The position numbers and the translations under genes were made by a program. Shown here one piece after another: positions 5,555-52,989 of a DNA stretch of 64,000 bases (the stretch's first letter is position 1; each line of letters opens with the position of its first letter). This DNA comes from Patescibacteria group bacterium (GTDB lineage Bacteria > Patescibacteriota > Minisyncoccia > UBA6257 > UBA9933): positions 29,232-93,231 of the forward strand of contig JBBTPY010000007.1 of NCBI GenBank assembly GCA_038065955.1, in the 5' to 3' direction. The notes beneath the pieces were generated by a model. That model saw nothing but the letters and a program-made list of their open reading frames with translations, did not search any database and was not told the origin of the DNA.

Positions 5555-6061
5555 TCAGTTTATCAAATTAAAAGCGATAATTCCAAACGCCACCGACACG
5601 TTAAGCGATTCTTTCTTGCCACGCATCGGAATTTCCAGAATCCGTTCGGCGCGGCTCAGGATTGACGGCGGCAAACCTTTAATTTCGCCGCCTAATACTA
5701 AAACAACTTTTTTACATCCGACATTCGATTTTTGCCGCCTTCGGCGAGCCTCGCTTTTAGCGGGACATTTGACCAGATAATACGGAATTGATTTTTTTGA
5801 TTGCTCAATCGCAAATATTTTATATCCCTCTTTTTTTAATTGAGCAATCAAGCGCGCCGAAGATTTACAATATTCCCACTCAACGTATTTTTCCGCAGCC
5901 AAAGAAACTTTCGTTAATTGCGTTCTCGGTCGGCCGAAAGCGTCAACCGGCGTCGGCGTAAAACCGCAAAGATAAATTTTTTCAACGCCGGCTGCGTCAG
6001 CGGTGCGAAAAATGGAACCGACGTTGTGAAGACTGCGGATGTTATGAAGAATAACGAACAT
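5555..6061 (-). CDS. SpoU/TrmH-family RNA 2'-O-methyltransferase
   Basis: ORF track 5555..6268 overlaps upstream gene by 206 nt. Met at 6061 gives MFVILHNIRSLHNVGSIFRTADAAG (SpoU motif 1) and starts 1 nt after the stop of the 1619-aa gene. Confidence 0.7.
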   Translation of the reverse strand: MFVILHNIRSLHNVGSIFRTADAAGVEKIYLCGFTPTPVDAFGRPRTQLTKVSLAAEKYVEWEYCKSSARLIAQLKKEGYKIFAIEQSKKSIPYYLVKCPAKSEARRRRQKSNVGCKKVVLVLGGEIKGLPPSILSRAERILEIPMRGKKESLNVSVAFGIIAFNLIN

Positions 6062-6062
6062 A

Positions 6063-40937: not shown

Positions 40938-41638
40938 GATTTAAATTGCTTTTTTAAATTTATGCTAAATAATACCATTCTTTTAATGAATTTCCATTTT
41001 GAATACAAATTTTTATTCCAATTGGATTCACCGTAAAGTCTTTTATTAAAAAAAACGGGAAAACGAATAATTTCAAGGTTTTGTCTTTTTGCCATATAAA
41101 AAGCGTATAAATCCAATGAAAAATCATAAGGCGGATTGTTCCATTTTTCAAAAAAACTTCTATGAAAAATGTTCGGCTGAGCGTTTATGTCATAAAATAT
41201 TCCGCTGAAATACATTGATTCAAACACGCTCATTCCAAAAGTGAAAAATCTATCTATTAACGGCCGCCCTTTGCGTCTGCCCTTCATATAAATATTTTTC
41301 GGATTATTATTTTTTTCTATAATTTCTAACGCCTTTAAAATATCGTTCGGCGGCGTTTGCATATCACCGTGAGTCCAGCCAATATATTCCCCCTTTGCCC
41401 CTTTTAATCCGCTTAAAATTCCAAAACCATATCCTTGATTTTTTTCAACCCCAATAACTCTCGCAAAAGAATATTGAGGCAGTAAATTATTTAACATATC
41501 TTTACTGTTATCTGTTGAACCATTATTAATAATAATTACTTCAACATCGTTTCTTTTAATAACCCCCTGAAAACCGCTCAATATAAGAGGAATATTTTTT
41601 TCTTCATTATAACAAGGTATGACTATGGATAATTTCAT
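40934..41638 (-). CDS. GT2 polyprenyl-phosphate sugar synthase-like (DPM1/GtrB-like)
   Basis: 234 aa; LSIVIPCYNEEKNIPLILSGF, IINNGSTDNS, DMQTPP (D-x-D region). Confidence 0.75.
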   Translation of the reverse strand: MKLSIVIPCYNEEKNIPLILSGFQGVIKRNDVEVIIINNGSTDNSKDMLNNLLPQYSFARVIGVEKNQGYGFGILSGLKGAKGEYIGWTHGDMQTPPNDILKALEIIEKNNNPKNIYMKGRRKGRPLIDRFFTFGMSVFESMYFSGIFYDINAQPNIFHRSFFEKWNNPPYDFSLDLYAFYMAKRQNLEIIRFPVFFNKRLYGESNWNKNLYSKWKFIKRMVLFSINLKKQFKS

Positions 41639-43509
41639 AAAGCTCTTATTAAACCAAATATTGTTGACCCATATTGTTTATTTTTAAATTCCTTCCAGTT
41701 TTTCCATCCTAAATTTTCCAAATCGTTTTTTAATTTATCACCGCCATAAAAATCCGAAATCAAAACCAATTGGATTTTATTATTTTTATTAATATTTTCA
41801 GAGAAAAAATCAGAAGGTATTTCTTTATAAATATCTCTTTCAGATTTTACTTCTGAAACGGTAAAATTATTTAATATTTCTCCAAAAACGCCGTAGGTTA
41901 CGCCTGCTACAAAAATATTTCCCGCATATCCGGCTTTTTTAGCTTCTGTAAATGCTTTTTTATATTCATAAGGAAATTCTGACAAAATAGCATATTGACT
42001 ACGAACTTTAATATCTTGATTAAAAGATATTTTTAACTGATCTATCGGCTTGTTAAAGCCGGCCAAATTTTTAAAAACATAAATATTATTAATAATTAAA
42101 ATAGTAAAAATTACCGGCAAAAGTTTATGCGCCAAATTATAACGTTTGACTGCAAAATTCACAATCAGAAAAAATCCTAGAATTATAAAAGGAATAATAT
42201 ATTCCGCTTGATATCTACCAATTCCCCAAAGACCGGGAGCAATCATATAAAAAACATACACTCCGGCAATAAAAAAAATTAAAACCGCTGAAATTTTAAG
42301 CGAATTTTTAATAAAAAATAATAAAGGGATAAATAAAAATATAACCCAGGGCCAACCAATAGAATTCATAATCGCATTAAAAACAATTTCTGAATCCAAA
42401 GCAACTAAAACTCTTTGAAAGCTGGGAATATCCCCCAGATAACTCGCCGAAGTGCCATTAATAACGCTACTAAATAAGAAAGGAAGCATTAAAAAAATCG
42501 GACTTATTAAAATAAAAATTTCTTTTATTTTAAATTCTTTTCTCTTAAACAAATCAACAATGATAATTAAAAATAATGGTAATAGAGCCACAAAAACGGA
42601 TTGCCTTAATAAGGTAAAAATAGAAATTATAGAAATCCACCTTATATAATTAAATTTTTCGCTATAAGCAAAAACATAAAACAAAAACGCTGTCCAGGAT
42701 ACGGCTGTCCAAACAGATTGTTCCGCAAGAACTCCGACATGCCATAAAACCGGTATTGTACCAACAGCCAAAGCAAATAACCATGAATTAATAAAATTTA
42801 ATTTTAGATTGGCGATTCTTTGAATAAACAACATTAATCCAATCAAACCGACAAATTGAGCTAATCTGAAATTAAAATCCGCGCTGGTAAAAATAGCGCT
42901 GGAAAACCACAATGGAAATAATCTAAAAGACGGATGAGGCCCGGCGCTCCCGCCAAACGCCATAATGATAAATCTAAAAACTAAAAACAGCGATGAAAAA
43001 ACAGCTACTTTAAATAACCAACTTCTATTTTTTGTGAATTTATAAAATAAAAATCCAACAAAAATTATCAACAAATCAACAATATAAATAAGCCATTTAA
43101 AACTAAAATTATTTAAAAATCCGGTTTGGTTAGATAAAAAATCAATCAACGTGATACTGTGAAGTTTTGATTGCTGGCTATGAGCCAATTGATCGCCATT
43201 AAGCGACATCATTAAATTGCCTAAAGATAAAACAAGCATTATCAGAAAAAAAGACGCAAATACCAAAATATCTTTGTTTTTTATAATAATTCCGTCTTTA
43301 TACGAATTGTCATTTTTCCAAAGCCACAGAAATAAAATAAAAATTCCGCAAAGAATAAAAGAAATTAAAATATTCGCAGTAAAGCCAAAACTTTTTGCCG
43401 TAAGCGCGCCAAAAAATCCATAAGACCAAAACGCGACAAAAGCGAGAATCGCCGCCCAATTTAAATTTATAATAAATATCTCTTTATTTAAATCAAATCT
43501 ATTATTCAT
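41635..43509 (-). CDS. large polytopic membrane protein with C-terminal soluble domain; candidate GT-C fold glycosyltransferase (GtrC/YfhO-like role)
   Basis: 624 aa; about 13-14 TM helices then about 150-aa hydrophilic C-terminus; 4-nt overlap with GtrB-like gene. Confidence 0.4.
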   Translation of the reverse strand: MNNRFDLNKEIFIINLNWAAILAFVAFWSYGFFGALTAKSFGFTANILISFILCGIFILFLWLWKNDNSYKDGIIIKNKDILVFASFFLIMLVLSLGNLMMSLNGDQLAHSQQSKLHSITLIDFLSNQTGFLNNFSFKWLIYIVDLLIIFVGFLFYKFTKNRSWLFKVAVFSSLFLVFRFIIMAFGGSAGPHPSFRLFPLWFSSAIFTSADFNFRLAQFVGLIGLMLFIQRIANLKLNFINSWLFALAVGTIPVLWHVGVLAEQSVWTAVSWTAFLFYVFAYSEKFNYIRWISIISIFTLLRQSVFVALLPLFLIIIVDLFKRKEFKIKEIFILISPIFLMLPFLFSSVINGTSASYLGDIPSFQRVLVALDSEIVFNAIMNSIGWPWVIFLFIPLLFFIKNSLKISAVLIFFIAGVYVFYMIAPGLWGIGRYQAEYIIPFIILGFFLIVNFAVKRYNLAHKLLPVIFTILIINNIYVFKNLAGFNKPIDQLKISFNQDIKVRSQYAILSEFPYEYKKAFTEAKKAGYAGNIFVAGVTYGVFGEILNNFTVSEVKSERDIYKEIPSDFFSENINKNNKIQLVLISDFYGGDKLKNDLENLGWKNWKEFKNKQYGSTIFGLIRAL

Positions 43510-43521
43510 ATTCGTTTCGAA

Positions 43522-44319
43522 TTAAATTTTTTGCAAAATAATTTGCCGTTGTAATGCAAATATTCTTGGGGATATTATTGTTAAAATATCATCTATGAGC
43601 TTGATTAACCGCAATAAAAATATCGGCAACGGAATATAAAAAGTTTTTGCGATTACTCCTCCCGAATTCAAAAAAATAAAAAATTCACAATATTTATCAC
43701 TGATAATTTTAAAATAAGGAATTTTTTGTTTAAATTTATTTTTATTATCAAAAAGCAGATTAGGAATTGCGCAATTGGCCGACCATAAATCATTCGGATT
43801 GGTACAAACAGCTTCTTCATTAAAAACATCAACGTCAAAAGAATATCCCTCGTGCCTCATTAATCTTAAAAATAATCGCATAAAAAAAGACGCGTTTATC
43901 TCTTGGATTAATAAAACTCCGCCCGGCCTTAAAATACGATTCATCTCTTGAAAAAATTTCAAAGGATATGGAACATGATGAATCATATTGCTTGAAACAA
44001 TAAAATCGAAGCTTTTGTTTTCAAATGGCGTATTTAAAGCATCAACATTTTTTATATCTAACCAATCATTATCTAAATAATCGGTTAATATAAAATTTCT
44101 CGCCTTGATATAAAATTTGCTTATTCCAGTACCACAGCCGACTTCAACGCCCCTTGAATCATATTTAATATATTCATTCATCCATTTATATCTATTTCCC
44201 AATAAAAATTTCAAATTATTGTTTTTTGATTTTATAAAATACTCTCTTGCCTTTATGACATTCCCCTCATTTTTCATCCTATTATTTTTATGCAACGGTA
44301 TATATGTTTTTGTAAACAT
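43522..44319 (-). CDS. class I SAM-dependent methyltransferase
   Basis: 265 aa; GVEVGCGTGIS motif I, LRPGGVLLIQE. Confidence 0.75.
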   Translation of the reverse strand: MFTKTYIPLHKNNRMKNEGNVIKAREYFIKSKNNNLKFLLGNRYKWMNEYIKYDSRGVEVGCGTGISKFYIKARNFILTDYLDNDWLDIKNVDALNTPFENKSFDFIVSSNMIHHVPYPLKFFQEMNRILRPGGVLLIQEINASFFMRLFLRLMRHEGYSFDVDVFNEEAVCTNPNDLWSANCAIPNLLFDNKNKFKQKIPYFKIISDKYCEFFIFLNSGGVIAKTFYIPLPIFLLRLIKLIDDILTIISPRIFALQRQIILQKI

Positions 44320-44327
44320 TGTTAAAT

Positions 44328-44699
44328 TTAAGAATTAAAAACAAACCGCTTTTGACCGATGAAATTTAATGACGCGCTTGCTCCAGTCGCCACGACATAT
44401 GAAAAAACAAAAGAATTACTCAAAGATAATACCAAAGAATTCATGGCCACATTAACAACTATCGCCACCATATATAAAATAATGAATTTAATTAATTCTT
44501 TTTTAGAATAGCCAGGCTTTTTAAATGTCCAAAATTTATTTGCAACATACGCAACTATTGTTCCACAGATAAAAGCAAACGCCTTTGCCAACCACGGCTC
44601 TAAAAAAAATAATGAAGAATAATAAACAGCAGCATCTGCCGCCACGATAAAAATTCCAACTATTAAAAATCTTGATATTTCTTTTTTAAAATTATTCAT
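44328..44699 (-). CDS. GtrA-family small membrane protein (lipid-linked sugar translocation)
   Basis: 123 aa, 4 TM helices, FLIVGIFIVAADAAVYY...VAYVANKFWTFKK typical GtrA. Confidence 0.8.
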   Translation of the reverse strand: MNNFKKEISRFLIVGIFIVAADAAVYYSSLFFLEPWLAKAFAFICGTIVAYVANKFWTFKKPGYSKKELIKFIILYMVAIVVNVAMNSLVLSLSNSFVFSYVVATGASASLNFIGQKRFVFNS

Positions 44700-45453
44700 T
44701 GAATATTTCCGACCAGTATTTATACTCTTCCAGATCCTCTGACGTTCCCCACTGGCAAAAATGCGGCACTTTATCGTAAATAAAAACTTTCAACCCGTCC
44801 CCGACAAGCAAATTATAAACCAAACTTACATAGTATTCCCCGTTAAGTGCGATTTTCTCATCCATTAACTGCTGAAAGTATTTTTTAACATAAGCGCCGC
44901 GCTTAAAATAATAAGTTCCGCCAGATTGCGGAGAATCCATCTTATTCTCAGTGAAAGAATATTTTTCCTTAATTTCAAGCATATAATTATTTTCATCAAC
45001 CCTCATACTGGCGTAATAATTATCTTTATGAAGCAAATGCGGATGAAATCCTTTATATGCCACCACTGCGCCATCGCATTTATTTTCCGTGACAAATTTT
45101 TTAAAATCATTATAATCCCAATCTATAAAAAAATCGCAATAATTGACAATAACAGGTTCATTGTCGTGAATTAAATCAAAAATACTAGAAACCGCCCAGA
45201 CAGATCCTAATTTTCGATTTTTTATGCTTATAATTTTAGCCGTTGGTTTTGCGGACAATAAAATTTCCCGCATTTTTGTTGTTTCCAGATGTTCTTCATT
45301 GCAAATAAAAATAAAGTTCTCTTCTCCCGGGAATAAATCAATAATATGCTCTATAATTGTCTTATTGTTTATCCGAATAAGCGGTTTTGGTTCAAGATAG
45401 CCGGCTTTTTTAAATCGTTCGCCGGTTCCGGACATTGGTATAATAATCTTCAT
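44692..45453 (-). CDS. nucleotidyltransferase (GT-A-like NTP-transferase/cytidylyltransferase family, LicC-like size)
   Basis: 253 aa; MKIIIPMSGTGERFKKAGYLEPKPLIRINNKTIIEHIID; paralog of 49876..50694. Confidence 0.6.
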   Translation of the reverse strand: MKIIIPMSGTGERFKKAGYLEPKPLIRINNKTIIEHIIDLFPGEENFIFICNEEHLETTKMREILLSAKPTAKIISIKNRKLGSVWAVSSIFDLIHDNEPVIVNYCDFFIDWDYNDFKKFVTENKCDGAVVAYKGFHPHLLHKDNYYASMRVDENNYMLEIKEKYSFTENKMDSPQSGGTYYFKRGAYVKKYFQQLMDEKIALNGEYYVSLVYNLLVGDGLKVFIYDKVPHFCQWGTSEDLEEYKYWSEIFNE

Positions 45454-46445
45454 CTTTTTATTAATTTTTGCCGATATTTTTCACTTTCCATATTATTTAT
45501 ATAATCCAAATCTTTTTGAGAAAGCGGATTCAAAACTAAGCCGCAATCTTTTGCACAATCAACAATATATAGCCAAGCAATTAAATTTTCCTCAATTGCC
45601 CGCTCTTCTTTTTTATTTATTTTATAATTGATATTTCCGGCGCTTTCGTCAATTGAAATTTTATCGTTAATATTGTCACAAAAAACAATTTGGTCGGGAA
45701 ATAAAATATTTTTTGAGAAATTTTCAATTAAATCACCGTTATTTTTTATAAACTTTTTTAAAAAATTAATTTTATCTTTTTTATTCTTAGGAAAAACTTT
45801 TTTAAAATTCAAGTATTGCTTAATAAATATTTGAATTTCATTATGTAAATCAAAAACATGCTTCAAATTATTGCCAGAAACAATAAGGCCGTGATTTTGA
45901 ATTAAAATTACTTCCGGAATTTTGTTGTATTTATTTTTATGCCTATCTATTGCTTCTTTTACGCATAAAGTCAAATGAAGCCCGGGATTGCTATATGGCA
46001 ACCAAATTATATCTATGCCAGAATCTTGAAATATTTTTTTAAACAAGTTCTCGCCGTCCAAAGCGCAAGTAATAATGTTTGCGTATACTGAATGCGTATG
46101 TATGACATATTTTCCGAGCAAAGCGTGAAAACCCGTTTCTATTGAGGGCTTAATGTTTCCAGAACCGATTTTTCCCAATATACAGGAATCAATGAAATCC
46201 GCGCTATCTGGTTCAAAAACATCGGAAAAATCTTGAGTATTATAATATTTTGATAATTTATCATAATCGACCGCCACTAATCCGTTATTTTCTAAAACCT
46301 CTAAAAATCTGAAACCCGATGCCTTAATAAGCATTTTCCGGTCGTCGATTTTAATGGAAAAATTTCCGCCGGCGCCCTGAACCAAATCAGGACATTGTCC
46401 GATATCACGGGATATATCAATTATTTTTTTTAATTCATCTTTCAT
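45450..46445 (-). CDS. class II aldolase/adducin-family protein with C-terminal extension
   Basis: 331 aa; GNFSIKI, LIKASGF, PSIETGFHALL, VIHTHSVYANI follow the class II aldolase fold signature (Zn-binding H-x-H). Confidence 0.75.
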   Translation of the reverse strand: MKDELKKIIDISRDIGQCPDLVQGAGGNFSIKIDDRKMLIKASGFRFLEVLENNGLVAVDYDKLSKYYNTQDFSDVFEPDSADFIDSCILGKIGSGNIKPSIETGFHALLGKYVIHTHSVYANIITCALDGENLFKKIFQDSGIDIIWLPYSNPGLHLTLCVKEAIDRHKNKYNKIPEVILIQNHGLIVSGNNLKHVFDLHNEIQIFIKQYLNFKKVFPKNKKDKINFLKKFIKNNGDLIENFSKNILFPDQIVFCDNINDKISIDESAGNINYKINKKEERAIEENLIAWLYIVDCAKDCGLVLNPLSQKDLDYINNMESEKYRQKLIKR

Positions 46446-48564
46446 GCTCTTCTATCCTCATTTTTTCAAAAATATAGCAACAAACAAATAATTGTATGAG
46501 CCCCTTATGATTAAACGCCCATTCCGGTTCTTTAACTATTATCTCGCGTAATTCAGGAATAATTGTGTCTGCAATCTTGCCGATTATTTCCGAATTTATT
46601 TCACCTCCGACCTGAAATAACTGATAATTGTCATAAATCTTATAGTCAACGCTTAAATTTTCTTTTACTAATTGATCAAACAAAAATTCTAGATTTATGT
46701 CATTAACGCATTTAAATTCCAAACAAATATCAACCGATTCTTTTTCGTCCCCGATACTCTTTATAGAATCTTTGCTTTTAAGATAAATGGAAATATCCGC
46801 GTATTGTTCTTGAGATTTAATATATTGGTCAGAATCGCTCTGTCTTTTTTTAATTTGCTCAATAACTTTTTCCCTGCTATATCCCCTTTCTTTAACATCT
46901 CTGAGCGCTTTCCAATGAAGCCGTATTTGATCATCTGAATTAATGAAAATCTTAAGATCAAGAATGTTCCTCATTTTATTTAAAAATAAAGCGTGCAACC
47001 CCTCAAAAATAATTATCTTTTTTGATTCCAGGTTCTTCGGCAAAGTAAATTTTCCCGCGCTATGGTCATAATGGCGACGCTCGATCATCTTTCCGTTTTT
47101 TAAATGCAAGGCGTTTTTTAATTCAGTATAAAGCCCATTTGCTTTCGGATTTAAATGAGTCAATTTGTCCCACATTTTATGACCCCGCTCCCATTTATGC
47201 ATGTCGTCTCCTTCAAGTATGACAGTATTCTTTTCACTAAATATATCTTTAATAAGACCGGCAAAAGTGGTTTTCCCACTACCCGAATCGCCTGTCAAAC
47301 CTATCAAATAAGGCTGATATTTTATTTTATATTGAATATTGCTTTCTATTCCTTTTCTGTATATCCACAAAATATTTAATAATAATGTTGTTTGCAATAA
47401 TGTAAATATTATATTTACTAATTTATCGGCGTTAATGCCATAACTAATCAGAAAGTGATATAAATTGGGAATAGCGGCGATATTTTTTGAAATAAATTGA
47501 AATATTTCAAAAAAATCAGAATTTTTTATCACCAAAAAATAACTAAAATAAAATATATTAAGTAAAATGAAAGTGAATTTAGGCGCGTTATCTTGTTTAA
47601 TATAAAAATATATAAAAAACGGGATTATCCAATAATACCATCCCTGCATCGGAGGTATAAATAGGGTTAAAATACCAAAGCTAAAACCCAAAAACATTAA
47701 AAAAATGTCACGGTTAAATATTTTATAGGTCAGACTTTTAATAAACAATATCAAATAAGCCAAAGGAACGAAATATATCACAAAACTGTCGCTAATCTTA
47801 TAATTGAAATCAAATATCTTAAATTGTTCCTTATTATTCAGAACCAATTCAAAAAAACCGGGAGAAAATAAATAATTGAGATTTATAATCGCGAACAGGG
47901 CGAAAGGAACAAGCGACAACGAAATAATTTGACTGATTTTTACTCTTTTTAAAATCAAATAAACTAAAGCGAGGGGGATAGCAATTAAAATACCGGCTTT
48001 AGCGGAAATAGCCATGCCTAAAAAAATAAAAGCCCGATAAAATTTTTCCTTAAACAAAAAATAAAGAAAAATAAATAAAAACATTATTGGCAGCGCGTCC
48101 AATTGGCCATGCATATAACTAATGTAAAACAATATCGGCGAACACCAATAATATTTTAAAACTTTATCTTCTTTTCCCTTAAGCCAACGAACTAAGATGA
48201 GAAAAATAACTATGTCCGCAAAAATAATCGGCAAACGGTAAATAAAAACGTGCCAATTAGAAACAAAATTATAATCCAAACTTAAAAATGGGCTGAAAAT
48301 AAATCTTGGCGCCGCTAAAAGCCAAAGCATTACTTTTGGATAAGGGAAAATAATCAGCTCTTTCAATCCATAAAAAAAGTCATATGGATTTTGAAACCCG
48401 CTTACAACATAATAATTTACAAATCTGGAAAATAAATTAACCAAAAAATTAGAGGCAAAGAAAAAAGAAAATATAATTTTCAATCCCAAAACAGTTAAAA
48501 AAAGCGGAGATGAACAAAATTGAACACAATAACTTTTAATTTTTCCGATAATATCTCTATCCAT
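46435..48564 (-). CDS. fusion: N-terminal polytopic membrane domain (about 400 aa, at least 10 TM) + C-terminal phosphoribulokinase/uridine-kinase-family P-loop kinase domain
   Basis: 709 aa; Walker A LIGLTGDSGSGKTTFAGLI followed by ILEGDDMHKWER and PRK/Udk-type lid region. Confidence 0.6.
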   Translation of the reverse strand: MDRDIIGKIKSYCVQFCSSPLFLTVLGLKIIFSFFFASNFLVNLFSRFVNYYVVSGFQNPYDFFYGLKELIIFPYPKVMLWLLAAPRFIFSPFLSLDYNFVSNWHVFIYRLPIIFADIVIFLILVRWLKGKEDKVLKYYWCSPILFYISYMHGQLDALPIMFLFIFLYFLFKEKFYRAFIFLGMAISAKAGILIAIPLALVYLILKRVKISQIISLSLVPFALFAIINLNYLFSPGFFELVLNNKEQFKIFDFNYKISDSFVIYFVPLAYLILFIKSLTYKIFNRDIFLMFLGFSFGILTLFIPPMQGWYYWIIPFFIYFYIKQDNAPKFTFILLNIFYFSYFLVIKNSDFFEIFQFISKNIAAIPNLYHFLISYGINADKLVNIIFTLLQTTLLLNILWIYRKGIESNIQYKIKYQPYLIGLTGDSGSGKTTFAGLIKDIFSEKNTVILEGDDMHKWERGHKMWDKLTHLNPKANGLYTELKNALHLKNGKMIERRHYDHSAGKFTLPKNLESKKIIIFEGLHALFLNKMRNILDLKIFINSDDQIRLHWKALRDVKERGYSREKVIEQIKKRQSDSDQYIKSQEQYADISIYLKSKDSIKSIGDEKESVDICLEFKCVNDINLEFLFDQLVKENLSVDYKIYDNYQLFQVGGEINSEIIGKIADTIIPELREIIVKEPEWAFNHKGLIQLFVCCYIFEKMRIEEHER

Positions 48565-48573
48565 AAAGAAATT

Positions 48574-49227
48574 TTAGGAATTATTTATTAAAATTGTTTT
48601 AATGCCCATTTTTTCTCCGCCGGCCAAGTCTTTTTCATAATCATCGCCTATTAAAACAACATCGCTTGGTTGCATTTTTAATTTTTCAAGCGCGATTTTA
48701 AAAATGTTTTGATGCGGTTTGTCGCGCCCAGCCTCTTCTGAAGAAACAATAAAATTAAGATATTTCCCGATTTTTAAACGATGAATTTTTTCAAACTGAA
48801 TCTTAGCGGTTAAATCAGTAATTAAACATATCTTTATATTATTTTTACGGCATTTTTTCAAAAAATCCAATACGCCGTCAAATAATTTCATTTTCTTGAA
48901 AAAGCTGTCCCAATATAATTTTTCAAATTTAACGGTTAAATTTATATCTGTTTTGCCATAAATTTTTTCAAAAAGCCGCTGAAAATACAAAAAGCGGGAA
49001 TGAGAAGCTGCTTGGCCAAAAGTATATTTTTTAATACCCTGCCTTGCTGTTTTATAATTCTTCTTAAATTGCGCAAAAGAAATTAAATTATTTTTTTGAA
49101 AATGCCGCCAACAAGCTTTTAGAGCATACTGATGACATTGCTCATATTCGTATAAAGTATTATCTAAATCAAGTAAAATGGCTTTTTCACCGCTTTTTTT
49201 AATTTTTTCAAAATTAATAAAAAACAT
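48574..49227 (-). CDS. HAD-superfamily hydrolase (subfamily IA-like)
   Basis: 217 aa; motif I ILLDLDNTLY, motif IV LIGDDYEKDLAGG. Confidence 0.75.
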   Translation of the reverse strand: MFFINFEKIKKSGEKAILLDLDNTLYEYEQCHQYALKACWRHFQKNNLISFAQFKKNYKTARQGIKKYTFGQAASHSRFLYFQRLFEKIYGKTDINLTVKFEKLYWDSFFKKMKLFDGVLDFLKKCRKNNIKICLITDLTAKIQFEKIHRLKIGKYLNFIVSSEEAGRDKPHQNIFKIALEKLKMQPSDVVLIGDDYEKDLAGGEKMGIKTILINNS

Positions 49228-49248
49228 AAATAACTCAATATTACTAAT

Positions 49249-49872
49249 TTATTTAATTAATTTTTCCCATTGTTCAGTATATTTTCTGGCAGTCATCACA
49301 GCGTCGAGCTTAAAATTCAAATCCTTTATCTTTTGTGCGTAGGGCACGATATCCTGCGGCCGGCCCCAACGCTCCGGACATACCAAGCAGGTTTTAAAAT
49401 TTTTTAGACGACTGACAATATTTTCGTTTAATGGAAGAATGGTGTTAGTGTCAATCCAAACCCAGTCCAAAAGCGATTTGCCATTAACTATTTGCGATTC
49501 TACTGCCTCAATTGGCTCGGCCTCGCTATAGCGCACCGCAATGCTACGCACGCCTTCTTTTCTGGTAGCCCGGTATAAATAAGAGAATTCAGCATCTAAA
49601 AGAAAATATTTATCTTTTGGAATGCCATATTTTTCAGCAATATCTATAACTCTTTGTTCATAACCCGCTTCTTTTATGTTAAAAATGATAAAAGCGTGAT
49701 TAAAATTTTGAAGATACAACTCTAATTCATCGTATTTAGACGCATTGTCGATCGGGTCGTGATTCAACAACATTTTTTCTCCATAGCCCCTAATATCAAT
49801 TTCCACGCCATATTTCTGCGGGATTTCTTTCAATTGCTCAATTTTGTTAACGCGATGGATAATTATTTGCAT
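49249..49872 (-). CDS. hypothetical protein, possible minimal glycerophosphodiester-phosphodiesterase-like domain
   Basis: 207 aa; IIHRVN...VEIDIRGYGEKMLLNHD loosely follows GDPD pattern; weak. Confidence 0.3.
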   Translation of the reverse strand: MQIIIHRVNKIEQLKEIPQKYGVEIDIRGYGEKMLLNHDPIDNASKYDELELYLQNFNHAFIIFNIKEAGYEQRVIDIAEKYGIPKDKYFLLDAEFSYLYRATRKEGVRSIAVRYSEAEPIEAVESQIVNGKSLLDWVWIDTNTILPLNENIVSRLKNFKTCLVCPERWGRPQDIVPYAQKIKDLNFKLDAVMTARKYTEQWEKLIK

Positions 49873-49875
49873 GTT

Positions 49876-50694
49876 TTAATTTTTCTTCCTTAATTCAAAA
49901 TCGTACTTTTTGAAAAATTCCTTCCAATACTGATATTTTTTAAGGTCATCGGGCGTGCCCCAGCAAATATATTTTTCAACTTCAAAAACTTTTACTTGAT
50001 AACCGGCTTCTATAACTTCGTTGATAACCGAATCAACGTAAAACTCATTATTCACTTTTATATTTTTGCGAATCATATTTTCCGCGGCTTCAACAAAAAT
50101 TTTTCCTTTTTTAAACCAAAAAGTTCCAACAATGGCATGATCTTTTATCGGATTATCGCTAATCGGAATTTTTACAAAAGTTTTTAAAACGTTATTTTTA
50201 TCATCAACAACAGTCCAACCATACGCCTGTGGTTTTTTCTTCACCGCAACATTATTTCTAAATGTCCAAACTAAACAATCCGCTTCTTTTTTTAATTCTT
50301 CAAATTTTTCTTTATTCCAAACCATTCCATTATCGCAGGCGCCAATCAATAACTCTTCATTATTATTGATTAAATTTTTCGCCAAAAGACAAGTGCTCGC
50401 CTGACCTTCGGTAAGTTTATCAATAATCACAATTTTAGCATTTGGAAAATAAGATTTTAACGCTTTATCAATTTTATAATTATCAATATGTTCTTTACGA
50501 CAAATAAAAATCCATTTATCCGGCTTTGGCAAAGATTCAGCCGCCATAACCGCCATCGGCTTTCCAGAAACCAAAATTAATGGCTTGGGAATTTTATAAT
50601 TTTCATCTTTATATCTTTTTCCTTCACCAGCCATTGGAATTAAATTAATCATAGTTGTTTTTTTAATATTTCTTTGGCCCACTGTCGCGACCAA
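49876..50694 (-). CDS. nucleotidyltransferase (NTP-transferase family), paralog of 44692..45453
   Basis: 272 aa; MINLIPMAGEGKRYKDENYKIPKPLILVSGKPM. Confidence 0.6.
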   Translation of the reverse strand: MVATVGQRNIKKTTMINLIPMAGEGKRYKDENYKIPKPLILVSGKPMAVMAAESLPKPDKWIFICRKEHIDNYKIDKALKSYFPNAKIVIIDKLTEGQASTCLLAKNLINNNEELLIGACDNGMVWNKEKFEELKKEADCLVWTFRNNVAVKKKPQAYGWTVVDDKNNVLKTFVKIPISDNPIKDHAIVGTFWFKKGKIFVEAAENMIRKNIKVNNEFYVDSVINEVIEAGYQVKVFEVEKYICWGTPDDLKKYQYWKEFFKKYDFELRKKN

Positions 50695-52409
50695 TGCGTC
50701 TTAACATTTGATATTTGACCTTTAACATCTGACGAAAGCCATTTTTCAAACGGAAAAGTGAAGCCCATTTTCGGGCGAGTGAATATTTCTTCGGGCAATA
50801 AATCGCGCGTCGCTTCAACTAATAATGATTTATTTATGTCTTTTCCTAATTTTATTTCCGGCGGCAAACTGCTTAAATATTCAACGAGCGGATGATCTAG
50901 AAACGGCACCCGGACTTCAATGGAATGATACATTGACATAAAATCAGTGTCTTTAAGAAGCTGATTTTGAAGATAAAATTTTAGTTCTAAATAAGAAAGT
51001 AAATCAACAGAATGAAGCGTTTCGGCAGCCGAAACGCCGTAAGAAAACTCATCTATAAAATCTTTCACCTCGCTTAAATTGATATCTAAAATTTTCGCAA
51101 CTTCTTGCGACGCAAATAACCCTCTAACGCCCAAATAAAAACTTAAAATATCATTATTGGCGAAATAACTTAATTTTGAATATTTATCGCCGAATAAATC
51201 GCTTAATTTTAGCGGTGATTTTAACAATCGCGGCAAATTTTGAATTTTTCTCAATACTTTCGCTTTCTTAAAATGCGAATAGCCGCAAAAAATTTCATCT
51301 GATCCAAGTCCGGAAAGCACGGCTTTTAGCCCCGCTTCTTTAGCGGCTTTGGCAATAAAGAAAGTATTGACGCCGTCAATAGTCGGCTGGTCCATTGCTT
51401 CAAAAATTTCGTCGAACGAATTAAAAAAATCCTGTTTTGTAATTTTTATTTCCCGATGATTACTTTTTATTTTTTGCGCGACCAATCGCTGATATTTTTG
51501 CTCGGAAAATTCCGGTTCGTCAAAAATAATTGAAAGAGTGGTTATTGGATTTTTTCTTGATTGCGCCGCCAAAGCCGCAACAACGGACGAATCCAATCCT
51601 CCGCTTAAAAACACGCCCAGCGGCGCGTCACTGATTAAATGATAATTAATTGATTTATCAAGCAATTGCTTTACATTCTCCGCCGCTTTTCCAAAACTAA
51701 TGTTGTTTTTATTATGGAAAAATTCCAATGAATCATAATACTGAACCAACTTTTGCCTGCCATCAGCTTCGCGAACCAAATAATTACCTGCCGGTATCGC
51801 AAAAACATCTTTAATGGTTGTCATTGGCAATGGCACGGACCCGAACAATAAAAACCCGATATAAGCCTTAGGATTTTTAACAACCGGAATTAAACCGCTT
51901 CCAGTAATCGCTTTAACCGTTGAAGCAAAAACCAGTTTTTCGGTGTCGCTGAAATAATAAAGCGGTTTAATGCCGTAACGGTCTTTGACCAGAAAAAGTT
52001 TTTTATTTTTATCGTCCCATAATCCAAAAGCGAACATTCCCCTTAACATTGAAAAAGATTTTTCGCCGTATTCCGAATAAAGCGCCAAAATCATTTCGGT
52101 ATCGGTTTTTGTTTTGAATTTATATCCTTTTTTCTCTAAATCTTTTTTTAATTCTAAAAAATTATAAATTTCACCGTTAAAAGTAATTGATAACTTGCCA
52201 TATTTCATCGGTTGATGACCAGCTTTTGATAAATCCAAAATAGAAAGCCGCCGGTGGCCAAGAAAAATACCGTTTTTTTTATCGGAAAAAATTCCTTTAT
52301 CGTCCGGGCCGCGGTCTTTCTGCGAAAAATTCATTACTTCAACCGCTATTTCAAAATCTTTTATATTTTTGGCTTTTCCGCCGTAATAAACGCCAGAGAT
52401 TCCGCACAT
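50649..52409 (-). CDS. asnB: asparagine synthase (glutamine-hydrolysing)-family amidotransferase
   Basis: 586 aa; N-terminal MCGI (Cys2 nucleophile), PP-loop LSGGLDSS. Confidence 0.85.
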   Translation of the reverse strand: MCGISGVYYGGKAKNIKDFEIAVEVMNFSQKDRGPDDKGIFSDKKNGIFLGHRRLSILDLSKAGHQPMKYGKLSITFNGEIYNFLELKKDLEKKGYKFKTKTDTEMILALYSEYGEKSFSMLRGMFAFGLWDDKNKKLFLVKDRYGIKPLYYFSDTEKLVFASTVKAITGSGLIPVVKNPKAYIGFLLFGSVPLPMTTIKDVFAIPAGNYLVREADGRQKLVQYYDSLEFFHNKNNISFGKAAENVKQLLDKSINYHLISDAPLGVFLSGGLDSSVVAALAAQSRKNPITTLSIIFDEPEFSEQKYQRLVAQKIKSNHREIKITKQDFFNSFDEIFEAMDQPTIDGVNTFFIAKAAKEAGLKAVLSGLGSDEIFCGYSHFKKAKVLRKIQNLPRLLKSPLKLSDLFGDKYSKLSYFANNDILSFYLGVRGLFASQEVAKILDINLSEVKDFIDEFSYGVSAAETLHSVDLLSYLELKFYLQNQLLKDTDFMSMYHSIEVRVPFLDHPLVEYLSSLPPEIKLGKDINKSLLVEATRDLLPEEIFTRPKMGFTFPFEKWLSSDVKGQISNVKTHWSRQWAKEILKKQL

Positions 52410-52410: not shown

Positions 52411-52989
52411 TTATTCGCTAATTATTTTTTTAATTCTCTCGTCTTCCGGCCAAAGTTGAATAATTTTTTCGCCGATTGATTTAGCCTTTTCAAGCTCGCC
52501 GGTTTGCCGATAAATACCAAATAATCCGTAAAGCGGCATCGGCAATTTCGGGCCGAAATTTAAAGTCGCCCGATAATATTCTTCCGCCTTTTTTAAATCT
52601 TCAATTTTTTGATAACGGCGCCAACGCGTTTCATATATTGAAGCCACCAATAACAACTGCTTTGTATTATTTTTTAAAATATGTTTTTCAATATAATTCG
52701 TCAATTCCGTTGAAACATTTTTCGGTATATTTTCCTGACTGACAATATTTAAAAAAGTCTGCCCGGTAAAACGCGCCGATTCCTCTCCGCCAACCGGCGA
52801 ATAATAATCAAAAACTTTGTCAAAATTTTTCTTTAATTCGTCAACTGTTCTGATTGAACCGAGGTTATTCACCGCCCGGACATATTGTTGAGCTTTGCCG
52901 AAAGGCAAAAAAGCGCCAAAAATCAAGCCGAGAACGGTCAAAATAATAAAAATAATTATAATAAATTGTGTAATGAATAACTTTGCCAT
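52411..52989 (-). CDS. membrane-anchored TPR-repeat protein
   Basis: 192 aa; N-terminal TM; TPR-like YYRATLNFGP...GIYRQTGELEKAKSIGEKII. Confidence 0.55.
   Translation of the reverse strand: MAKLFITQFIIIIFIILTVLGLIFGAFLPFGKAQQYVRAVNNLGSIRTVDELKKNFDKVFDYYSPVGGEESARFTGQTFLNIVSQENIPKNVSTELTNYIEKHILKNNTKQLLLVASIYETRWRRYQKIEDLKKAEEYYRATLNFGPKLPMPLYGLFGIYRQTGELEKAKSIGEKIIQLWPEDERIKKIISE

What the first reader, a model, noticed from the sequence alone, without database searches (positions are those of the whole stretch)
44328..52409. Unusual sub-cluster: membrane-domain/PRK-type kinase fusion with class II aldolase-like, HAD, GDPD-like, two nucleotidyltransferases, GtrA and AsnB
These eight co-oriented genes do not match any standard nucleotide-sugar pathway. 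A 709-aa protein fuses about 400 aa of polytopic membrane domain to a phosphoribulokinase/uridine-kinase-family P-loop kinase, an architecture I do not recognise from characterised systems. It is flanked by a class II aldolase/epimerase-family enzyme (zinc H-x-H motif), a HAD phosphatase, two small LicC-sized nucleotidyltransferases and a possible GDPD-like protein. One reading is a salvage-and-activation route: uptake or transmembrane handling, then kinase, then aldolase/epimerase/dehydratase, then phosphatase, then nucleotidyl activation. The product would be a non-canonical phospho-alcohol or sugar-phosphate substituent (phosphocholine-, ribitol-P- or glycerol-P-like) installed on the glycan via the adjacent GtrA/GT-C module. 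The nearby secreted PLC would generate phospho-head groups from phospholipids, a speculative link.
Basis: inference. Interest (0 to 1): 0.6.

Follow-up and report, generated by a model that had tools for sequence, protein, structure and literature searches.

The report
Widespread uncharacterised surface-glycan decoration cassette
The flagged genes are real and belong to a gene cassette found in thousands of bacteria, including on an E. coli plasmid. It joins a Calvin-cycle-type sugar kinase to membrane machinery that decorates cell-surface sugars, probably to make and attach an unusual five-carbon sugar by a route nobody has described.

Summary
All eight minus-strand ORFs and their domain calls are confirmed.

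**The 709-aa protein.**
- It is a GT-C-type (GT87/ALG-like) polytopic membrane domain fused to a complete phosphoribulokinase (PRK).
- Every PRK catalytic and Ru5P-binding residue is invariant across the family.

**The cluster.**
- It is not peculiar to CPR. It is the core of a conserved, mobile cassette found in at least 10 phyla.
- It also sits on plasmids of cultured E. coli, Azospirillum brasilense and Hirschia baltica.
- Core members: PLC/GDPD-fold enzyme, HAD, GtrA, GT-C–PRK, class II aldolase, two paralogous nucleotidyltransferases (NTases) and a GT2.
- Four independent gene fusions tie members together: GtrA–GT-C–PRK, GT-C–PRK–aldolase, NTase–NTase and NTase–GT2.
- The HAD's closest characterised relative is the haloarchaeal ribulose-1,5-bisphosphate 5-phosphatase.
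- AsnB is not core. The cassette extends downstream to 40934.

**Best reading.** This is a Gtr-type three-component glycan-modification system with its own precursor pathway:
1. Ru5P is converted to RuBP and then to a pentulose-1-phosphate.
2. That is tailored and nucleotide-activated.
3. It is loaded on a lipid carrier and transferred outside the membrane.

The sugar identity and the later steps are inferred, not shown. No paper describing the cassette was found. The transporter and phosphocholine ideas are not supported.

The parts
40934..41638 (-). Proposed polyprenyl-phosphate sugar synthase.
   Evidence: PF00535. Weak best NCBIfam hits are PgfS and PgaC (ArnC ranks fifth). It is the orthologue of the GT2 in the E. 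coli plasmid cassette (phmmer E 1.4e-84). A GT2 of about 235-250 aa is present in 62 of 85 loci. It is fused to NTase B in L019, L020, L023, L025 and L026.
41635..43509 (-). Second polytopic membrane protein (624 aa, about 11 hydrophobic segments), possibly a second GT-C-type transferase.
   Evidence: No Pfam or NCBIfam hit. A homologue in L008 gives a weak PMT_2 hit. It is related to a 649-aa protein in the Hirschia cassette. Sequence-diverse polytopic proteins occupy the equivalent position in most cassettes.
43522..44319 (-). SAM-dependent methyltransferase (265 aa); accessory, not core.
   Evidence: Methyltransf_11/23. It is shared only with close relatives. Unrelated TylF-type methyltransferases occur in other cassettes.
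44328..44699 (-). GtrA-family small membrane protein; proposed flippase or accessory for the lipid-linked sugar.
   Evidence: PF04138, 72.9 bits. Found beside the fusion in 26 loci. In other organisms it is fused to the N-terminus of the GT-C–PRK protein (about 830 aa).
44692..45453 (-). Nucleotidyltransferase A (253 aa).
   Evidence: GxGxR and PKPL motifs; G9, G11, R13 and K23 are invariant in 31 homologues. Best solved relative is 4evw, an uncharacterised NDP-sugar pyrophosphorylase. It is 30% identical to NTase B. It is fused to NTase B in Flavobacteriaceae, E. coli, Azospirillum and Hirschia.
45450..46445 (-). Class II aldolase-family Zn enzyme (331 aa) with a conserved C-terminal extension.
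   Evidence: PF00596, 72 bits. Best NCBIfam hit is the N-terminal RhaD-like domain of bifunctional aldolase/SDR. These residues are at least 95% conserved in 69 homologues: the phosphate loop G26/G27/N28/S30, S43/G44, E103, and Zn ligands H116/H118/H185. It is fused to the C-terminus of the GT-C–PRK protein in 1058-aa homologues.
47329..48564 (-). Fusion protein residues 1-412: GT-C-like polytopic membrane domain.
   Evidence: The AlphaFold model is all-helical with high confidence. Pfam hits among homologues are GT87 (8 of 18), Alg6_Alg8, ALG3 and PMT_2. GT87 exceeds its gathering score in P0097, P0372 and P0441. Invariant acidic residues are D117, D156 and D350. The window protein itself gives no Pfam hit, and no fold search of this domain alone was possible.
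46435..47322 (-). Fusion protein residues 415-709: complete phosphoribulokinase domain.
   Evidence: PF00485, 133 bits. NCBIfam PRK07429 scores 186 bits, below its cut-off of 236. About 40% identical to Synechococcus PRK over 180 aa. Whole-PRK fold match to 9qko/9qkp and 5b3f (TM 0.7-0.8). The residues equivalent to CrPRK D57, R64, Y103, H105, R159, D160 and R164 are D453, R460, Y499, H501, R555, D556 and R560. All are invariant in 72 homologues.
48574..49227 (-). HAD-IA phosphatase (217 aa); proposed pentulose-1,5-bisphosphate 5-phosphatase.
   Evidence: HAD_2/Hydrolase. Top NCBIfam hit is NF053830, haloarchaeal RuBP 5-phosphatase: 192 bits against 126 for the next family, below the cut-off of 330. 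The same top hit appears for HADs of four distant cassettes. The DxD nucleophile motif D20/D22, K170 and D195/D200 are conserved.
49249..49872 (-). PLC/GDPD-fold TIM-barrel enzyme (207 aa); role unresolved.
   Evidence: No Pfam, NCBIfam or PDB sequence hit. AlphaFold pLDDT is 96. The second- to seventh-ranked Foldseek matches are GDPD/GlpQ structures (E 8e-6 to 3e-4); rank 1 is a β-1,3(4)-glucanase at E 4e-6. The H6-R7…E24-x-D26…H38-D39 motif is conserved. PGAP calls the plasmid orthologues 'PI-PLC/GDPD family'. The family has at least 1633 members. It is present in 65 of 85 loci.
49876..50652 (-). Nucleotidyltransferase B (258 aa from ATG 50652; the listed ORF starts at TTG 50694).
   Evidence: RmlA-long/GlmU-like. 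G23, G25, R27 and K37 are invariant in 27 homologues. ATGA overlap with the AsnB stop. Fused to the GT2 in five loci.
50649..52409 (-). AsnB-type glutamine amidotransferase (586 aa); a neighbour, not a core cassette member.
   Evidence: TIGR01536, 464 bits. Present within 10 kb of the fusion in only 18 of 85 loci.

Best explanation
The genes belong to a conserved, horizontally mobile cassette. In this window it spans about 40934-50694. It combines a private cytoplasmic pathway for an unusual pentulose-derived sugar donor with a Gtr-type 'three-component' machinery that decorates a surface glycan outside the membrane.

**Proposed steps**
1. The PRK domain of the fusion phosphorylates C1 of ribulose-5-phosphate, or a very similar pentulose-5-phosphate. 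The product is the 1,5-bisphosphate.
2. The HAD removes the 5-phosphate, leaving a pentulose-1-phosphate. The net effect is an ATP-driven move of the phosphate from C5 to C1. This is the same kinase/phosphatase logic as the HldE/GmhB steps of NDP-heptose synthesis.
3. The class II aldolase-family Zn enzyme tailors this ketose-1-phosphate. The most likely reaction is retro-aldol/aldol epimerisation at C4, for example D-ribulose-1-P to L-xylulose-1-P. This step is optional, because some cassettes lack the enzyme.
4. The two paralogous NTases, with the PLC/GDPD-fold enzyme, convert the sugar phosphate into a nucleotide-activated donor.
5. The GT2 loads the sugar on polyprenyl phosphate.
6. GtrA helps move it across the membrane.
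7. The GT-C domain of the fusion, and/or the second polytopic protein, transfers it to the glycan. That glycan is built by the surrounding Wzx/Wzy locus.

**What is shown**
- Domain identities and conservation of catalytic residues.
- Synteny across phyla.
- The gene fusions.

**What is inferred**
- The substrates, the order of steps 3-4, the lipid carrier, the acceptor and the identity of the final sugar.
For: **PRK domain**
- Sequence and fold are closer to PRKs than to uridine kinases.
- The catalytic Asp/His dyad and the Arg/Tyr residues that bind the Ru5P phosphate are invariant in 72 homologues.

**HAD**
- The clear top hit is the experimentally characterised, RuBP-specific 5-phosphatase family. 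This holds in four distant cassettes.

**Aldolase**
- It keeps the Zn ligands, the catalytic Glu and the phosphate-binding loops. Among characterised class II aldolases such as FucA and RhaD, these features bind ketose-1-phosphates (my own knowledge).

**Synteny**
- Among 54 loci with at least 5 kb on both sides, 45 carry aldolase plus the PLC-like gene. Most of these also carry HAD, two NTases and GT2.

**Fusions**
- GT-C–PRK in all members.
- GT-C–PRK–aldolase.
- GtrA–GT-C–PRK.
- NTase A–NTase B.
- NTase B–GT2.

**Membrane domain**
- It hits GT-C families.

**Mobility and context**
- In E. coli the whole eight-gene cassette sits on an IncR plasmid about 1.6 kb from an IS26.
- In A. brasilense it lies beside an ABC transporter (unnamed in the annotation; Wzm/Wzt-like in my reading), gmd and GDP-L-fucose synthase genes.
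- In this window it sits inside a large Wzx/Wzy glycan locus with no convincing internal terminator.
Against: - No enzyme activity has been measured for any member.
- PRK, HAD and NTase A score below the curated cut-offs of their nearest named families: 186 vs 236, 192 vs 330, and 24 vs 27 bits.
- A ketose phosphorylated at C1 is not an anomeric phosphate. A plain NDP-1-pentulose would therefore not be a glycosyl donor for a GT2, so an extra step is needed that I can only guess at.
- The role of the PLC/GDPD-fold enzyme is unexplained.
- In eight Bacteroidota loci a canonical GDPD replaces both the aldolase and the PLC-like gene. The aldolase is therefore not essential to the scheme.
- The GT-C assignment rests on weak profile hits. 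No fold search of the membrane domain alone could be run.
- Most cassettes hold a second polytopic membrane protein, so which protein is the final transferase is open.
Confidence: 0.55

Rival explanations
1. The cassette installs a phosphodiester-linked substituent rather than a glycosidic sugar. On this reading the NTases make an NDP-1-pentulose, or an NDP-pentitol after reduction elsewhere. This would be analogous to CDP-ribitol, CDP-5-xylulose or CDP-6-fructose. A phospho-sugar would then be transferred to the glycan, with the PLC/GDPD-fold enzyme handling the phosphodiester.
For: - The kinase product is a primary phosphate ester, which follows from the conserved PRK chemistry.
- NTases of this superfamily do activate non-anomeric sugar phosphates. 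Examples are CDP-6-D-fructose in C. jejuni HS:5 (PMC10918830, listed) and TarI and AbpA (my own knowledge).
- A phosphodiesterase-fold enzyme is a core member.
Against: - No LicD, TagF, CDP-alcohol phosphotransferase or Stealth-type phosphotransferase is found in the core.
- No reductase is conserved.
- NTase B is fused to a GT2, and GtrA to the GT-C domain. Both point to a lipid-linked glycosyl donor.
Confidence: 0.17
2. The kinase, HAD and aldolase form a catabolic or salvage shunt like the haloarchaeal non-carboxylating pentose bisphosphate pathway: Ru5P to RuBP to Ru1P to DHAP plus glycolaldehyde. The link to glycan genes would then be incidental, or would serve only to supply DHAP or glycolaldehyde.
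For: The HAD is closest to the RuBP 5-phosphatase. In haloarchaea that enzyme forms an operon with a class II Ru1P aldolase.
Against: - The route would waste ATP as catabolism.
- The aldolase is not the FucA*-type Ru1P aldolase. NF053831 scores only 20 bits against a cut-off of 300.
- The kinase is always fused to a GT-C-like membrane domain, and sometimes also to GtrA.
- NTases and GT2 are as conserved as the HAD.
- Eight loci lack the aldolase altogether.
Confidence: 0.06
3. The kinase domain is a uridine or nucleoside kinase, as many databases annotate it. On this reading it supplies or regulates nucleotides for the adjacent NTases and does not act on a sugar phosphate.
For: JGI and PGAP name many homologues 'uridine kinase'. 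The P-loop core also aligns to uridine kinases.
Against: - PRKs match far better: E about 1e-34 against 1e-15, and the whole 300-residue fold including the PRK C-terminal region.
- PRK-specific residues for the catalytic dyad and for binding the Ru5P phosphate are invariant.
Confidence: 0.05

Closest known systems
Three-component periplasmic glycan modification systems (GtrA/GtrB/GtrC, ArnC/ArnEF/ArnT, CsbB/GtcA/YfhO, Klebsiella GmlABC)
   Same: A GtrA-family protein, a small GT2 resembling polyprenyl-phosphate glycosyltransferases, and a GT-C-type polytopic membrane protein are encoded together. They sit inside or beside a glycan locus, and on mobile DNA in E. coli.
   Different: - Known systems draw on housekeeping or separately made NDP-sugars.
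- This cassette carries its own five- to six-enzyme precursor pathway.
- The GT-C domain is covalently fused to a cytoplasmic PRK, and in some organisms also to GtrA or the aldolase.
- Most cassettes hold a second large membrane protein.
Phosphoribulokinase of the plant/cyanobacterial/archaeal type (PDB 6hzk, 5b3f, 9qko)
   Same: About 40% identity over the P-loop core. The full PRK fold is present. All catalytic and Ru5P-binding residues are conserved.
   Different: - It is fused behind a roughly 410-aa membrane domain.
- It lacks the redox-regulatory cysteine context of photosynthetic PRKs.
- It occurs in heterotrophs inside glycan clusters, with no link to RuBisCO.
- It scores below the NCBIfam PRK07429 cut-off.
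Haloarchaeal non-carboxylating pentose bisphosphate pathway (RuBP 5-phosphatase plus Ru1P aldolase; Sato et al. 2022, PMC9700705)
   Same: A HAD most similar to the RuBP 5-phosphatase is encoded next to a class II aldolase. This implies RuBP and ribulose-1-phosphate as intermediates.
   Different: - RuBP would come from PRK, not from R15P isomerase.
- The aldolase is RhaD-like, not FucA*-like.
- The setting is anabolic (NTases, GT2, GtrA, GT-C), not nucleoside catabolism.
NDP-heptose pathway (GmhA, HldE/HddA kinase, GmhB HAD phosphatase, HldC/HddC NTase)
   Same: The same logic applies. A sugar ω-phosphate is phosphorylated at C1, a HAD removes the ω-phosphate, and an NTase activates the sugar-1-phosphate.
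   Different: - The kinase family is unrelated: PRK against ribokinase/GHMP.
- The substrate is a ketopentose, so the C1 phosphate is not anomeric.
- The aldolase-family and PLC/GDPD-fold enzymes and a second NTase have no counterpart.
Glycerophosphodiester phosphodiesterases (GlpQ/UgpQ, PF03009)
   Same: The 207-aa ORF has the same TIM-barrel fold and the H-R…E-x-D…H-D catalytic pattern. In eight loci a true PF03009 GDPD takes its place.
   Different: - It is shorter and lacks the P-E-N-T loop.
- It has no detectable sequence-profile similarity to GDPDs (hhalign probability below 1%).
- It forms its own highly conserved family of at least 1633 'hypothetical' proteins.

Membership tests
Phosphoribulokinase (PF00485 / NCBIfam PRK07429) | Pfam PRK domain above the gathering score | tested here: met
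   133.3 bits against a cut-off of 22, residues 420-594.
Phosphoribulokinase (PF00485 / NCBIfam PRK07429) | NCBIfam phosphoribulokinase subfamily cut-off | tested here: not met
   185.9 bits against a cut-off of 236. It is still the best named family, well ahead of uridine kinase at 92 bits.
Phosphoribulokinase (PF00485 / NCBIfam PRK07429) | Catalytic Asp/His dyad and Ru5P phosphate-binding residues (CrPRK D57, H105, R64, Y103, R159, D160, R164) | tested here: met
   D453, H501, R460, Y499, R555, D556 and R560 align to them. All are invariant in 72 homologues. Residue roles are taken from PMC9978339 and bioRxiv 10.1101/422709.
Phosphoribulokinase (PF00485 / NCBIfam PRK07429) | ATP-dependent conversion of Ru5P to RuBP | not testable with these tools
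   Needs an enzyme assay.
GT-C glycosyltransferases (GT87 / ALG-type) | Profile match to a GT-C family above threshold | tested here: inconclusive
   The window protein gives no hit. Among homologues, GT87 hits 8 of 18, Alg6_Alg8 4, ALG3 3 and PMT_2 1. GT87 exceeds its cut-off of 25 bits in P0097 (26.1), P0372 (26.5) and P0441 (32.6).
GT-C glycosyltransferases (GT87 / ALG-type) | GT-C fold with a conserved acidic residue in the first extracytoplasmic loop | tested here: inconclusive
Haloarchaeal RuBP 5-phosphatase (NF053830) | Score above the curated equivalog cut-off | tested here: not met
   192.4 bits against 330, and 166-186 bits for four other cassette HADs. It is the top hit in every case, 50-70 bits ahead of the next family.
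Haloarchaeal RuBP 5-phosphatase (NF053830) | HAD catalytic motifs | tested here: met
   D20-x-D22, K170 and D195/D200 are at least 95% conserved in 68 homologues.
Class II aldolase/adducin (PF00596) | Domain above threshold, with three Zn-binding His, a catalytic Glu and a phosphate-binding loop | tested here: met
   72 bits against a cut-off of 22.2. H116, H118, H185, E103 and G26-G27-N28-x-S30 are at least 95% conserved.
Haloarchaeal Ru1P aldolase (NF053831) | Equivalog cut-off | tested here: not met
   20.4 bits against 300. The closest family is the RhaD-like N-terminal domain of bifunctional aldolase/SDR, at 70 bits.
GDPD / PI-PLC-like phosphodiesterases (PF03009) | Sequence-profile match | tested here: not met
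   No Pfam, NCBIfam or PDB sequence hit. hhalign against a canonical GDPD gives a probability of 0.6%.
GDPD / PI-PLC-like phosphodiesterases (PF03009) | TIM-barrel fold with two catalytic His and acidic metal ligands | tested here: met
   Foldseek matches to 1zcc, 3i10, 4r7o and GlpQ 5t91 have E 8e-6 to 1.5e-4 and TM 0.6-0.7. H6, R7, E24, D26, H38 and D39 are conserved. The assignment of roles to these residues is by motif analogy only.
Sugar-phosphate nucleotidyltransferases (RmlA/GlmU/LicC superfamily) | Profile match and the G-x-G-x-R / K signature | tested here: met
   NTase A scores 24.1 against 27 for NTP_transf_3, just below threshold. NTase B gives no Pfam hit. Both match RmlA/GlmU models in NCBIfam. 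An NTase A profile hits 4evw at 1e-13, and GlmU, RfbF and HddC more weakly. The signature residues are invariant.
Three-component (Gtr-type) glycan modification system | GtrA-family protein, polyprenyl-phosphate GT2 and GT-C transferase encoded together | tested here: met
   All three gene types are present and syntenic. They are linked by fusions.
Three-component (Gtr-type) glycan modification system | The GT2 makes a polyprenyl-phosphate sugar that the GT-C uses outside the membrane | not testable with these tools
   Only weak similarity to PgfS, ArnC and Dol-P-hexose transferases.

The most novel reading that the evidence does not exclude
The cassette may be the missing biosynthetic and transfer system for ketopentofuranose side chains on bacterial polysaccharides, meaning xylulofuranose or ribulofuranose.

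**The open question**
- Xulf occurs in E. coli O95 and O97. The review cited here notes that no precursor genes exist in their O-antigen clusters.
- Xulf also decorates the Y. enterocolitica O:10 D-rhamnan.
- No donor or pathway for Xulf is known.

**Proposed route**
1. D-Ru5P goes to RuBP via the PRK domain.
2. RuBP goes to D-Ru1P via the HAD.
3. D-Ru1P goes to L-Xu1P by retro-aldol/aldol C4 epimerisation on the RhaD-like aldolase.
4. NTase A makes NDP-1-pentulose.
5. The PI-PLC/GDPD-fold enzyme forms and opens a 1,2-cyclic phosphate, which moves the phosphate to the anomeric C2.
6. NTase B makes the true glycosyl donor.
7. GT2, GtrA and the GT-C domain then deliver and attach the sugar.

This is the only scheme I found that uses every core enzyme. 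It would also make RuBP an intermediate of glycan biosynthesis. It is entirely inferred.
Probability: 0.15. Interest if true: 0.85.

Novelty: new variant of a known kind. Interest (0 to 1): 0.7.

Why it matters
**Scale.**
- PRK is regarded as a Calvin-cycle marker.
- Here a catalytically intact PRK is hard-wired to a glycosyltransferase-type membrane domain.
- At 50% identity the fusion forms 448 protein clusters at E ≤ 1e-30.
- Its hosts span Patescibacteria, Bacteroidota, Proteobacteria, Bdellovibrionota, a spirochaete endosymbiont, Melainabacteria, Elusimicrobiota and DPANN archaea.

**If the reading is right.**
- RuBP and ribulose-1-phosphate would be intermediates of a new sugar-activation pathway.
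- A common, mobile glycan-decoration system would have gone unnoticed under the labels 'uridine kinase' and 'hypothetical protein'.
- PRK-based calls of Calvin-cycle potential in metagenomes would need care.

**Testability.**
- The cassette exists in tractable organisms: an E. coli IncR plasmid, Azospirillum brasilense, Hirschia baltica and cultured Flavobacteriaceae.
- The question is therefore directly testable. It might also resolve where ketopentofuranose residues in O-antigens come from.

Tried and rejected
**Membrane domain**
- A profile of the membrane domain found nothing among PDB sequences.
- Simple hydropathy analysis could not settle the topology.

**PLC/GDPD-fold ORF**
- Sequence searches against Pfam, NCBIfam and PDB were empty.
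- hhalign against a canonical GDPD was negative.

**Literature**
- Searches for the fusion or the cassette found nothing relevant.
- Jaffe et al. 2018 report only stand-alone PRK homologues in CPR.

**Xylulose idea**
- Only 2 of 5426 complete E. coli genomes carry the cassette, both on plasmids, even in distant blastn mode. I could not examine O95/O97 or Yersinia strains.

**Phage carriage**
- Looked for and not found.

**Taxonomy**
- Cluster look-up gave no organism names for the closest homologues.

**Readings rejected**
- Transporter or uptake role for the membrane domain.
- Phosphocholine or glycerol-phosphate pathway.
- AsnB as a core member.
- Catabolic pentose-bisphosphate shunt.

**Not done**

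Full report
**Observation**

The region 44328-52409 holds eight co-oriented minus-strand ORFs at exactly the stated coordinates. Junctions are short gaps or overlaps. The NTase B ORF is listed from TTG 50694. An ATG at 50652 overlaps the AsnB stop as ATGA and is the more likely start.

- GtrA.
- Two small RmlA/GlmU-like nucleotidyltransferases.
- A class II aldolase with the H-x-H motif.
- A HAD-IA phosphatase.
- AsnB.
- A 709-aa protein whose residues 420-594 are a PRK/uridine-kinase domain, preceded by about 410 residues of hydrophobic helices.

The 207-aa ORF has no sequence-family hit. Its AlphaFold model has mean pLDDT 96 and is a TIM barrel. GDPD/GlpQ enzymes are its second- to seventh-ranked structural matches, at E 8e-6 to 3e-4 and TM 0.6-0.7. 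The top hit is a β-1,3(4)-glucanase at E 4e-6. The 'GDPD-like' guess is therefore right at the level of fold.

**The fusion protein: kinase half**

- It is much closer to phosphoribulokinases than to uridine kinases. Against solved structures the E-value is about 1e-34 for cyanobacterial and archaeal PRKs and 1e-15 for uridine kinases.
- It is about 40% identical to Synechococcus PRK over 180 residues.
- The model (pLDDT 90.8) matches whole PRK chains, including their C-terminal region, with TM 0.7-0.8 normalised to the PRK.
- Published work names these functional residues in Chlamydomonas numbering: the catalytic dyad D57/H105; the phosphate-binding residues R64 and Y103; and the loop residues R159, D160 and R164.
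- In the alignments these correspond to D453, H501, R460, Y499, R555, D556 and R560. All seven are invariant in an alignment of 72 family members that are 42-84% identical to the window protein.
- The inference that the domain phosphorylates Ru5P, or something very like it, is therefore strong. It remains an inference. The domain scores 186 bits against a curated cut-off of 236 for the NCBIfam PRK subfamily.

**The fusion protein: membrane half**

- In the window protein it gives no Pfam hit.
- Its homologues repeatedly hit GT-C glycosyltransferase families: GT87 in 8 of 18, Alg6/Alg8 in 4, ALG3 in 3 and PMT_2 in 1.
- GT87 passes Pfam's own threshold in three homologues.
- Several acidic residues (D117, D156, D350) are invariant.
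- I could not run a fold search on this domain alone. I therefore call it GT-C-like with moderate confidence.
- It is not a transporter by any evidence I found.

**Distribution**

The fusion is not a CPR curiosity.
- A word-indexed search returned 999 hits at E ≤ 1e-5 among the 8000 candidates scored.
- An exhaustive profile search with the membrane domain alone found 448 clusters (50% identity) at E ≤ 1e-30 and 822 at E ≤ 1e-10. Nearly all of the best 150 are fusions of about 700 aa.
- A scan of one genome per species gave 106 confirmed loci, of which 80 were fetched. They cover many Patescibacteria lineages, Bacteroidota, Melainabacteria, Bdellovibrionota, a spirochaete endosymbiont, a Woesearchaeote, Elusimicrobiota and others.
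- The Bacteroidota include the cultured Eudoraea adriatica, Zeaxanthinibacter enoshimensis and Geojedonia litorea.
- Some MAG labels in that list look unreliable.
- A more distant branch, 27-29% identical, is abundant in Proteobacteria: 1814 hits at E ≤ 1e-20 among the 8000 candidates scored, including Orrella and Crenobacter.
- That branch sits on plasmids of E. coli, Azospirillum brasilense MTCC4039 and Hirschia baltica ATCC 49814.
- In E. coli it is present in 2 of 5426 complete genomes, on near-identical plasmids of about 33 kb; the one typed is IncR, about 1.6 kb from an IS26.
- It was not found in viral contigs or phage records.

**Synteny and fusions**

I called ORFs in 85 loci and compared them with the window proteins and with each other.

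Families that accompany the fusion:

| Family | Loci (of 85) |
|---|---|
| NTases (136 ORFs, about two per locus) | 78 |
| HAD | 65 |
| PLC/GDPD-fold protein | 65 |
| Aldolase (plus cases fused to the kinase) | 65 |
| GT2 of about 235-250 aa | 62 |
| GtrA | 26 |
| AsnB | 18 |

- Wzy-like proteins, the methyltransferase and the GT4s are shared only with close relatives, so they are not core.
- The usual order is PLC-like, HAD, (GtrA), fusion, aldolase, NTase A, NTase B, GT2, then a sequence-diverse polytopic membrane protein.
- The window's GT2 at 40934-41638 is the clear orthologue of the cassette GT2 in E. coli (E 1.4e-84).

Four kinds of gene fusion link the members physically:
- GT-C–PRK–aldolase (1058 aa).
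- GtrA–GT-C–PRK (about 830 aa).
- NTase A–NTase B (about 550 aa).
- NTase B–GT2 (about 500 aa).

Together with the synteny, this makes a single shared function close to certain.

**The soluble enzymes**

- *HAD.* Its best NCBIfam match by a wide margin is NF053830 (192 bits; the next family scores 126). This is the haloarchaeal ribulose-1,5-bisphosphate 5-phosphatase. The same holds for the HADs of the E. coli, Azospirillum, Bacteroidia and Eudoraea cassettes. That enzyme was shown experimentally to be strictly specific for RuBP and to yield ribulose-1-phosphate. In haloarchaea it is co-operonic with a class II aldolase that cleaves Ru1P. The scores here are below the curated cut-off of 330, so this is 'closest relative', not membership.
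- *Aldolase.* It keeps the three Zn histidines, the catalytic glutamate and both phosphate-binding loops in 69 homologues. It also has a conserved C-terminal extension. Its nearest family is the RhaD-like N-terminal domain of bifunctional rhamnulose-1-phosphate aldolase/dehydrogenases, not the haloarchaeal Ru1P aldolase.
- *NTases.* The two are paralogues at 30% identity. Both keep the G-x-G-x-R and lysine signature. Their nearest solved relative, 4evw, is uncharacterised.
- *PLC/GDPD-fold protein.* It forms a very conserved family of at least 1633 'hypothetical' proteins with an H-R…E-x-D…H-D pattern.

**An informative variant**

Eight Bacteroidota loci lack both the aldolase and this protein. 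In the aldolase position they carry a canonical cytoplasmic GDPD (PF03009, 97 bits), in otherwise identical clusters. A phosphodiesterase-fold enzyme therefore appears to be required, while the aldolase is dispensable.

**Most likely mechanism**

The pieces fit a Gtr-type three-component modification system (GtrA, GT2, GT-C) with a dedicated precursor pathway.
1. PRK would make a pentulose-1,5-bisphosphate.
2. The HAD would remove the 5-phosphate. The resulting ketose-1-phosphate is exactly the substrate class of class II aldolases.
3. The aldolase would tailor it. C4 epimerisation by retro-aldol/aldol is the obvious chemistry. From established aldolase stereochemistry (FucA acts on D-ribulose-1-P, RhaD on L-xylulose-1-P), this would interconvert D-ribulose-1-P and L-xylulose-1-P.
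4. The NTase pair would activate it.
5. The GT2, which is fused to NTase B in some genomes, would load it on polyprenyl phosphate.
6. GtrA and the GT-C domain, which are fused to each other in some genomes, would move and transfer it.

The kinase/phosphatase/NTase logic mirrors NDP-heptose synthesis.

*The weak point.* A C1 phosphate on a ketose is not anomeric, so something must convert it into a true glycosyl donor. My speculative solution runs as follows. NTase A activates the C1 phosphate. The PI-PLC-like enzyme forms and reopens a 1,2-cyclic phosphate, moving the phosphate to the anomeric C2. NTase B then activates that. This uses every core enzyme and explains the duplicated NTase, but nothing tests it.

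**Link to an open question**

- A review of E. coli O antigens states that xylulofuranose occurs in O95 and O97. It also states that no genes for its precursor are found in those O-antigen clusters.
- Y. enterocolitica O:10 has a D-rhamnan made by a Wzm/Wzt system, with L-Xulf side branches of unassigned genetics.
- A plasmid- or island-borne three-component cassette built around pentulose phosphates is an attractive candidate. In Azospirillum the cassette sits next to an ABC-transporter pair (unnamed in the annotation) and gmd.
- I could not check those strains, so I rate this reading at about 15%.

**Context in the window**

- The cassette lies inside a long run of minus-strand glycan genes. 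These include an initiating phosphoglycosyl transferase, two Wzx-type flippases, Wzy-type proteins and several GT4/GT2 enzymes.
- A strong terminator sits at 56839-56870, upstream of the run. No convincing terminator follows down to 37655.
- The closest homologues of the fusion (85-60% identity) come from Patescibacteria-labelled MAGs and unnamed metagenome contigs. The window has 28-35% G+C across the glycan locus. Both fit a CPR origin, which I did not prove.

**Verdict**

- The feature is a real, widespread and apparently uncharacterised variant of a known kind of system.
- What is new: the obligatory fusion of a catalytically intact PRK to a GT-C-type domain, and the implied use of RuBP and pentulose-1-phosphate in glycan precursor synthesis.

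Noticed in passing
window 28000-56000 versus 1-10000 and 56000-64000: The glycan locus has a markedly lower G+C content (0.28-0.35) than the flanks (0.38-0.49). GC skew is negative almost throughout, matching the one-strand gene orientation. This may mark a variable or horizontally exchanged surface-glycan island.
   Followed up: no
window 56839-56870: A perfect 14-bp G+C-rich hairpin with T-runs on both strands forms a bidirectional terminator. It lies between the 1164-aa PG_binding_1 protein gene and the first Wzy_C/TPR gene. It is the only convincing terminator in 37.5-57.4 kb.
   Followed up: partly
window 6063-10922 (-): A 1619-aa protein with four lamin-tail domains and a weak fibronectin-III hit. 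It is probably a large surface protein.
   Followed up: no
window 52994-54421 and 54425-56800 (-): Two adjacent Wzy_C (O-antigen ligase/polymerase-like) proteins, the second with C-terminal TPR repeats. A 192-aa single-pass protein of no known family lies at 52411-52989. The trio is conserved with the cassette only in close relatives.
   Followed up: partly
window 13258-16049 (+) and 25590-27047 (-): An initiating Bac_transf phosphoglycosyl transferase and two separate Wzx-type (Polysacc_synt) flippases lie in one locus. This suggests more than one lipid-linked glycan is exported.
   Followed up: no
L046, L055, L057, L058, L066, L069, L073, L076 (Bacteroidota loci): In these cassettes a canonical 241-aa cytoplasmic GDPD (PF03009) sits where the aldolase normally is. 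Both the aldolase and the 200-aa PLC-like gene are absent. This looks like a non-orthologous replacement and constrains any mechanism.
   Followed up: partly
L086 (E. coli plasmid NZ_CP145712.1) 9456-11438: The E. coli copy of the fusion is annotated as a 660-aa 'uridine kinase'. Its many 83-97% identical metagenomic homologues are 683 aa. The annotated start is therefore probably 23 codons too late.
   Followed up: no
locus titles (e.g. L007, L019, L020, L029): Several MAG records carrying CPR-like versions of the cassette are titled 'uncultured Gammaproteobacteria', 'Rhizobium sp.' or 'Rickettsia typhi'. Given their 45-60% identity to Patescibacteria proteins, these labels look like placeholder or erroneous taxonomy.
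   Followed up: no
neighbourhoods of the cassette in 27 and 12 of 85 loci: UDP-glucuronate-decarboxylase-like SDRs occur in 27 loci and UDP-glucose 6-dehydrogenases in 12. They often lie next to the cassette, and Hirschia has a UXS-family gene inside it. This hints that UDP-pentose chemistry is frequently co-located.
   Followed up: partly
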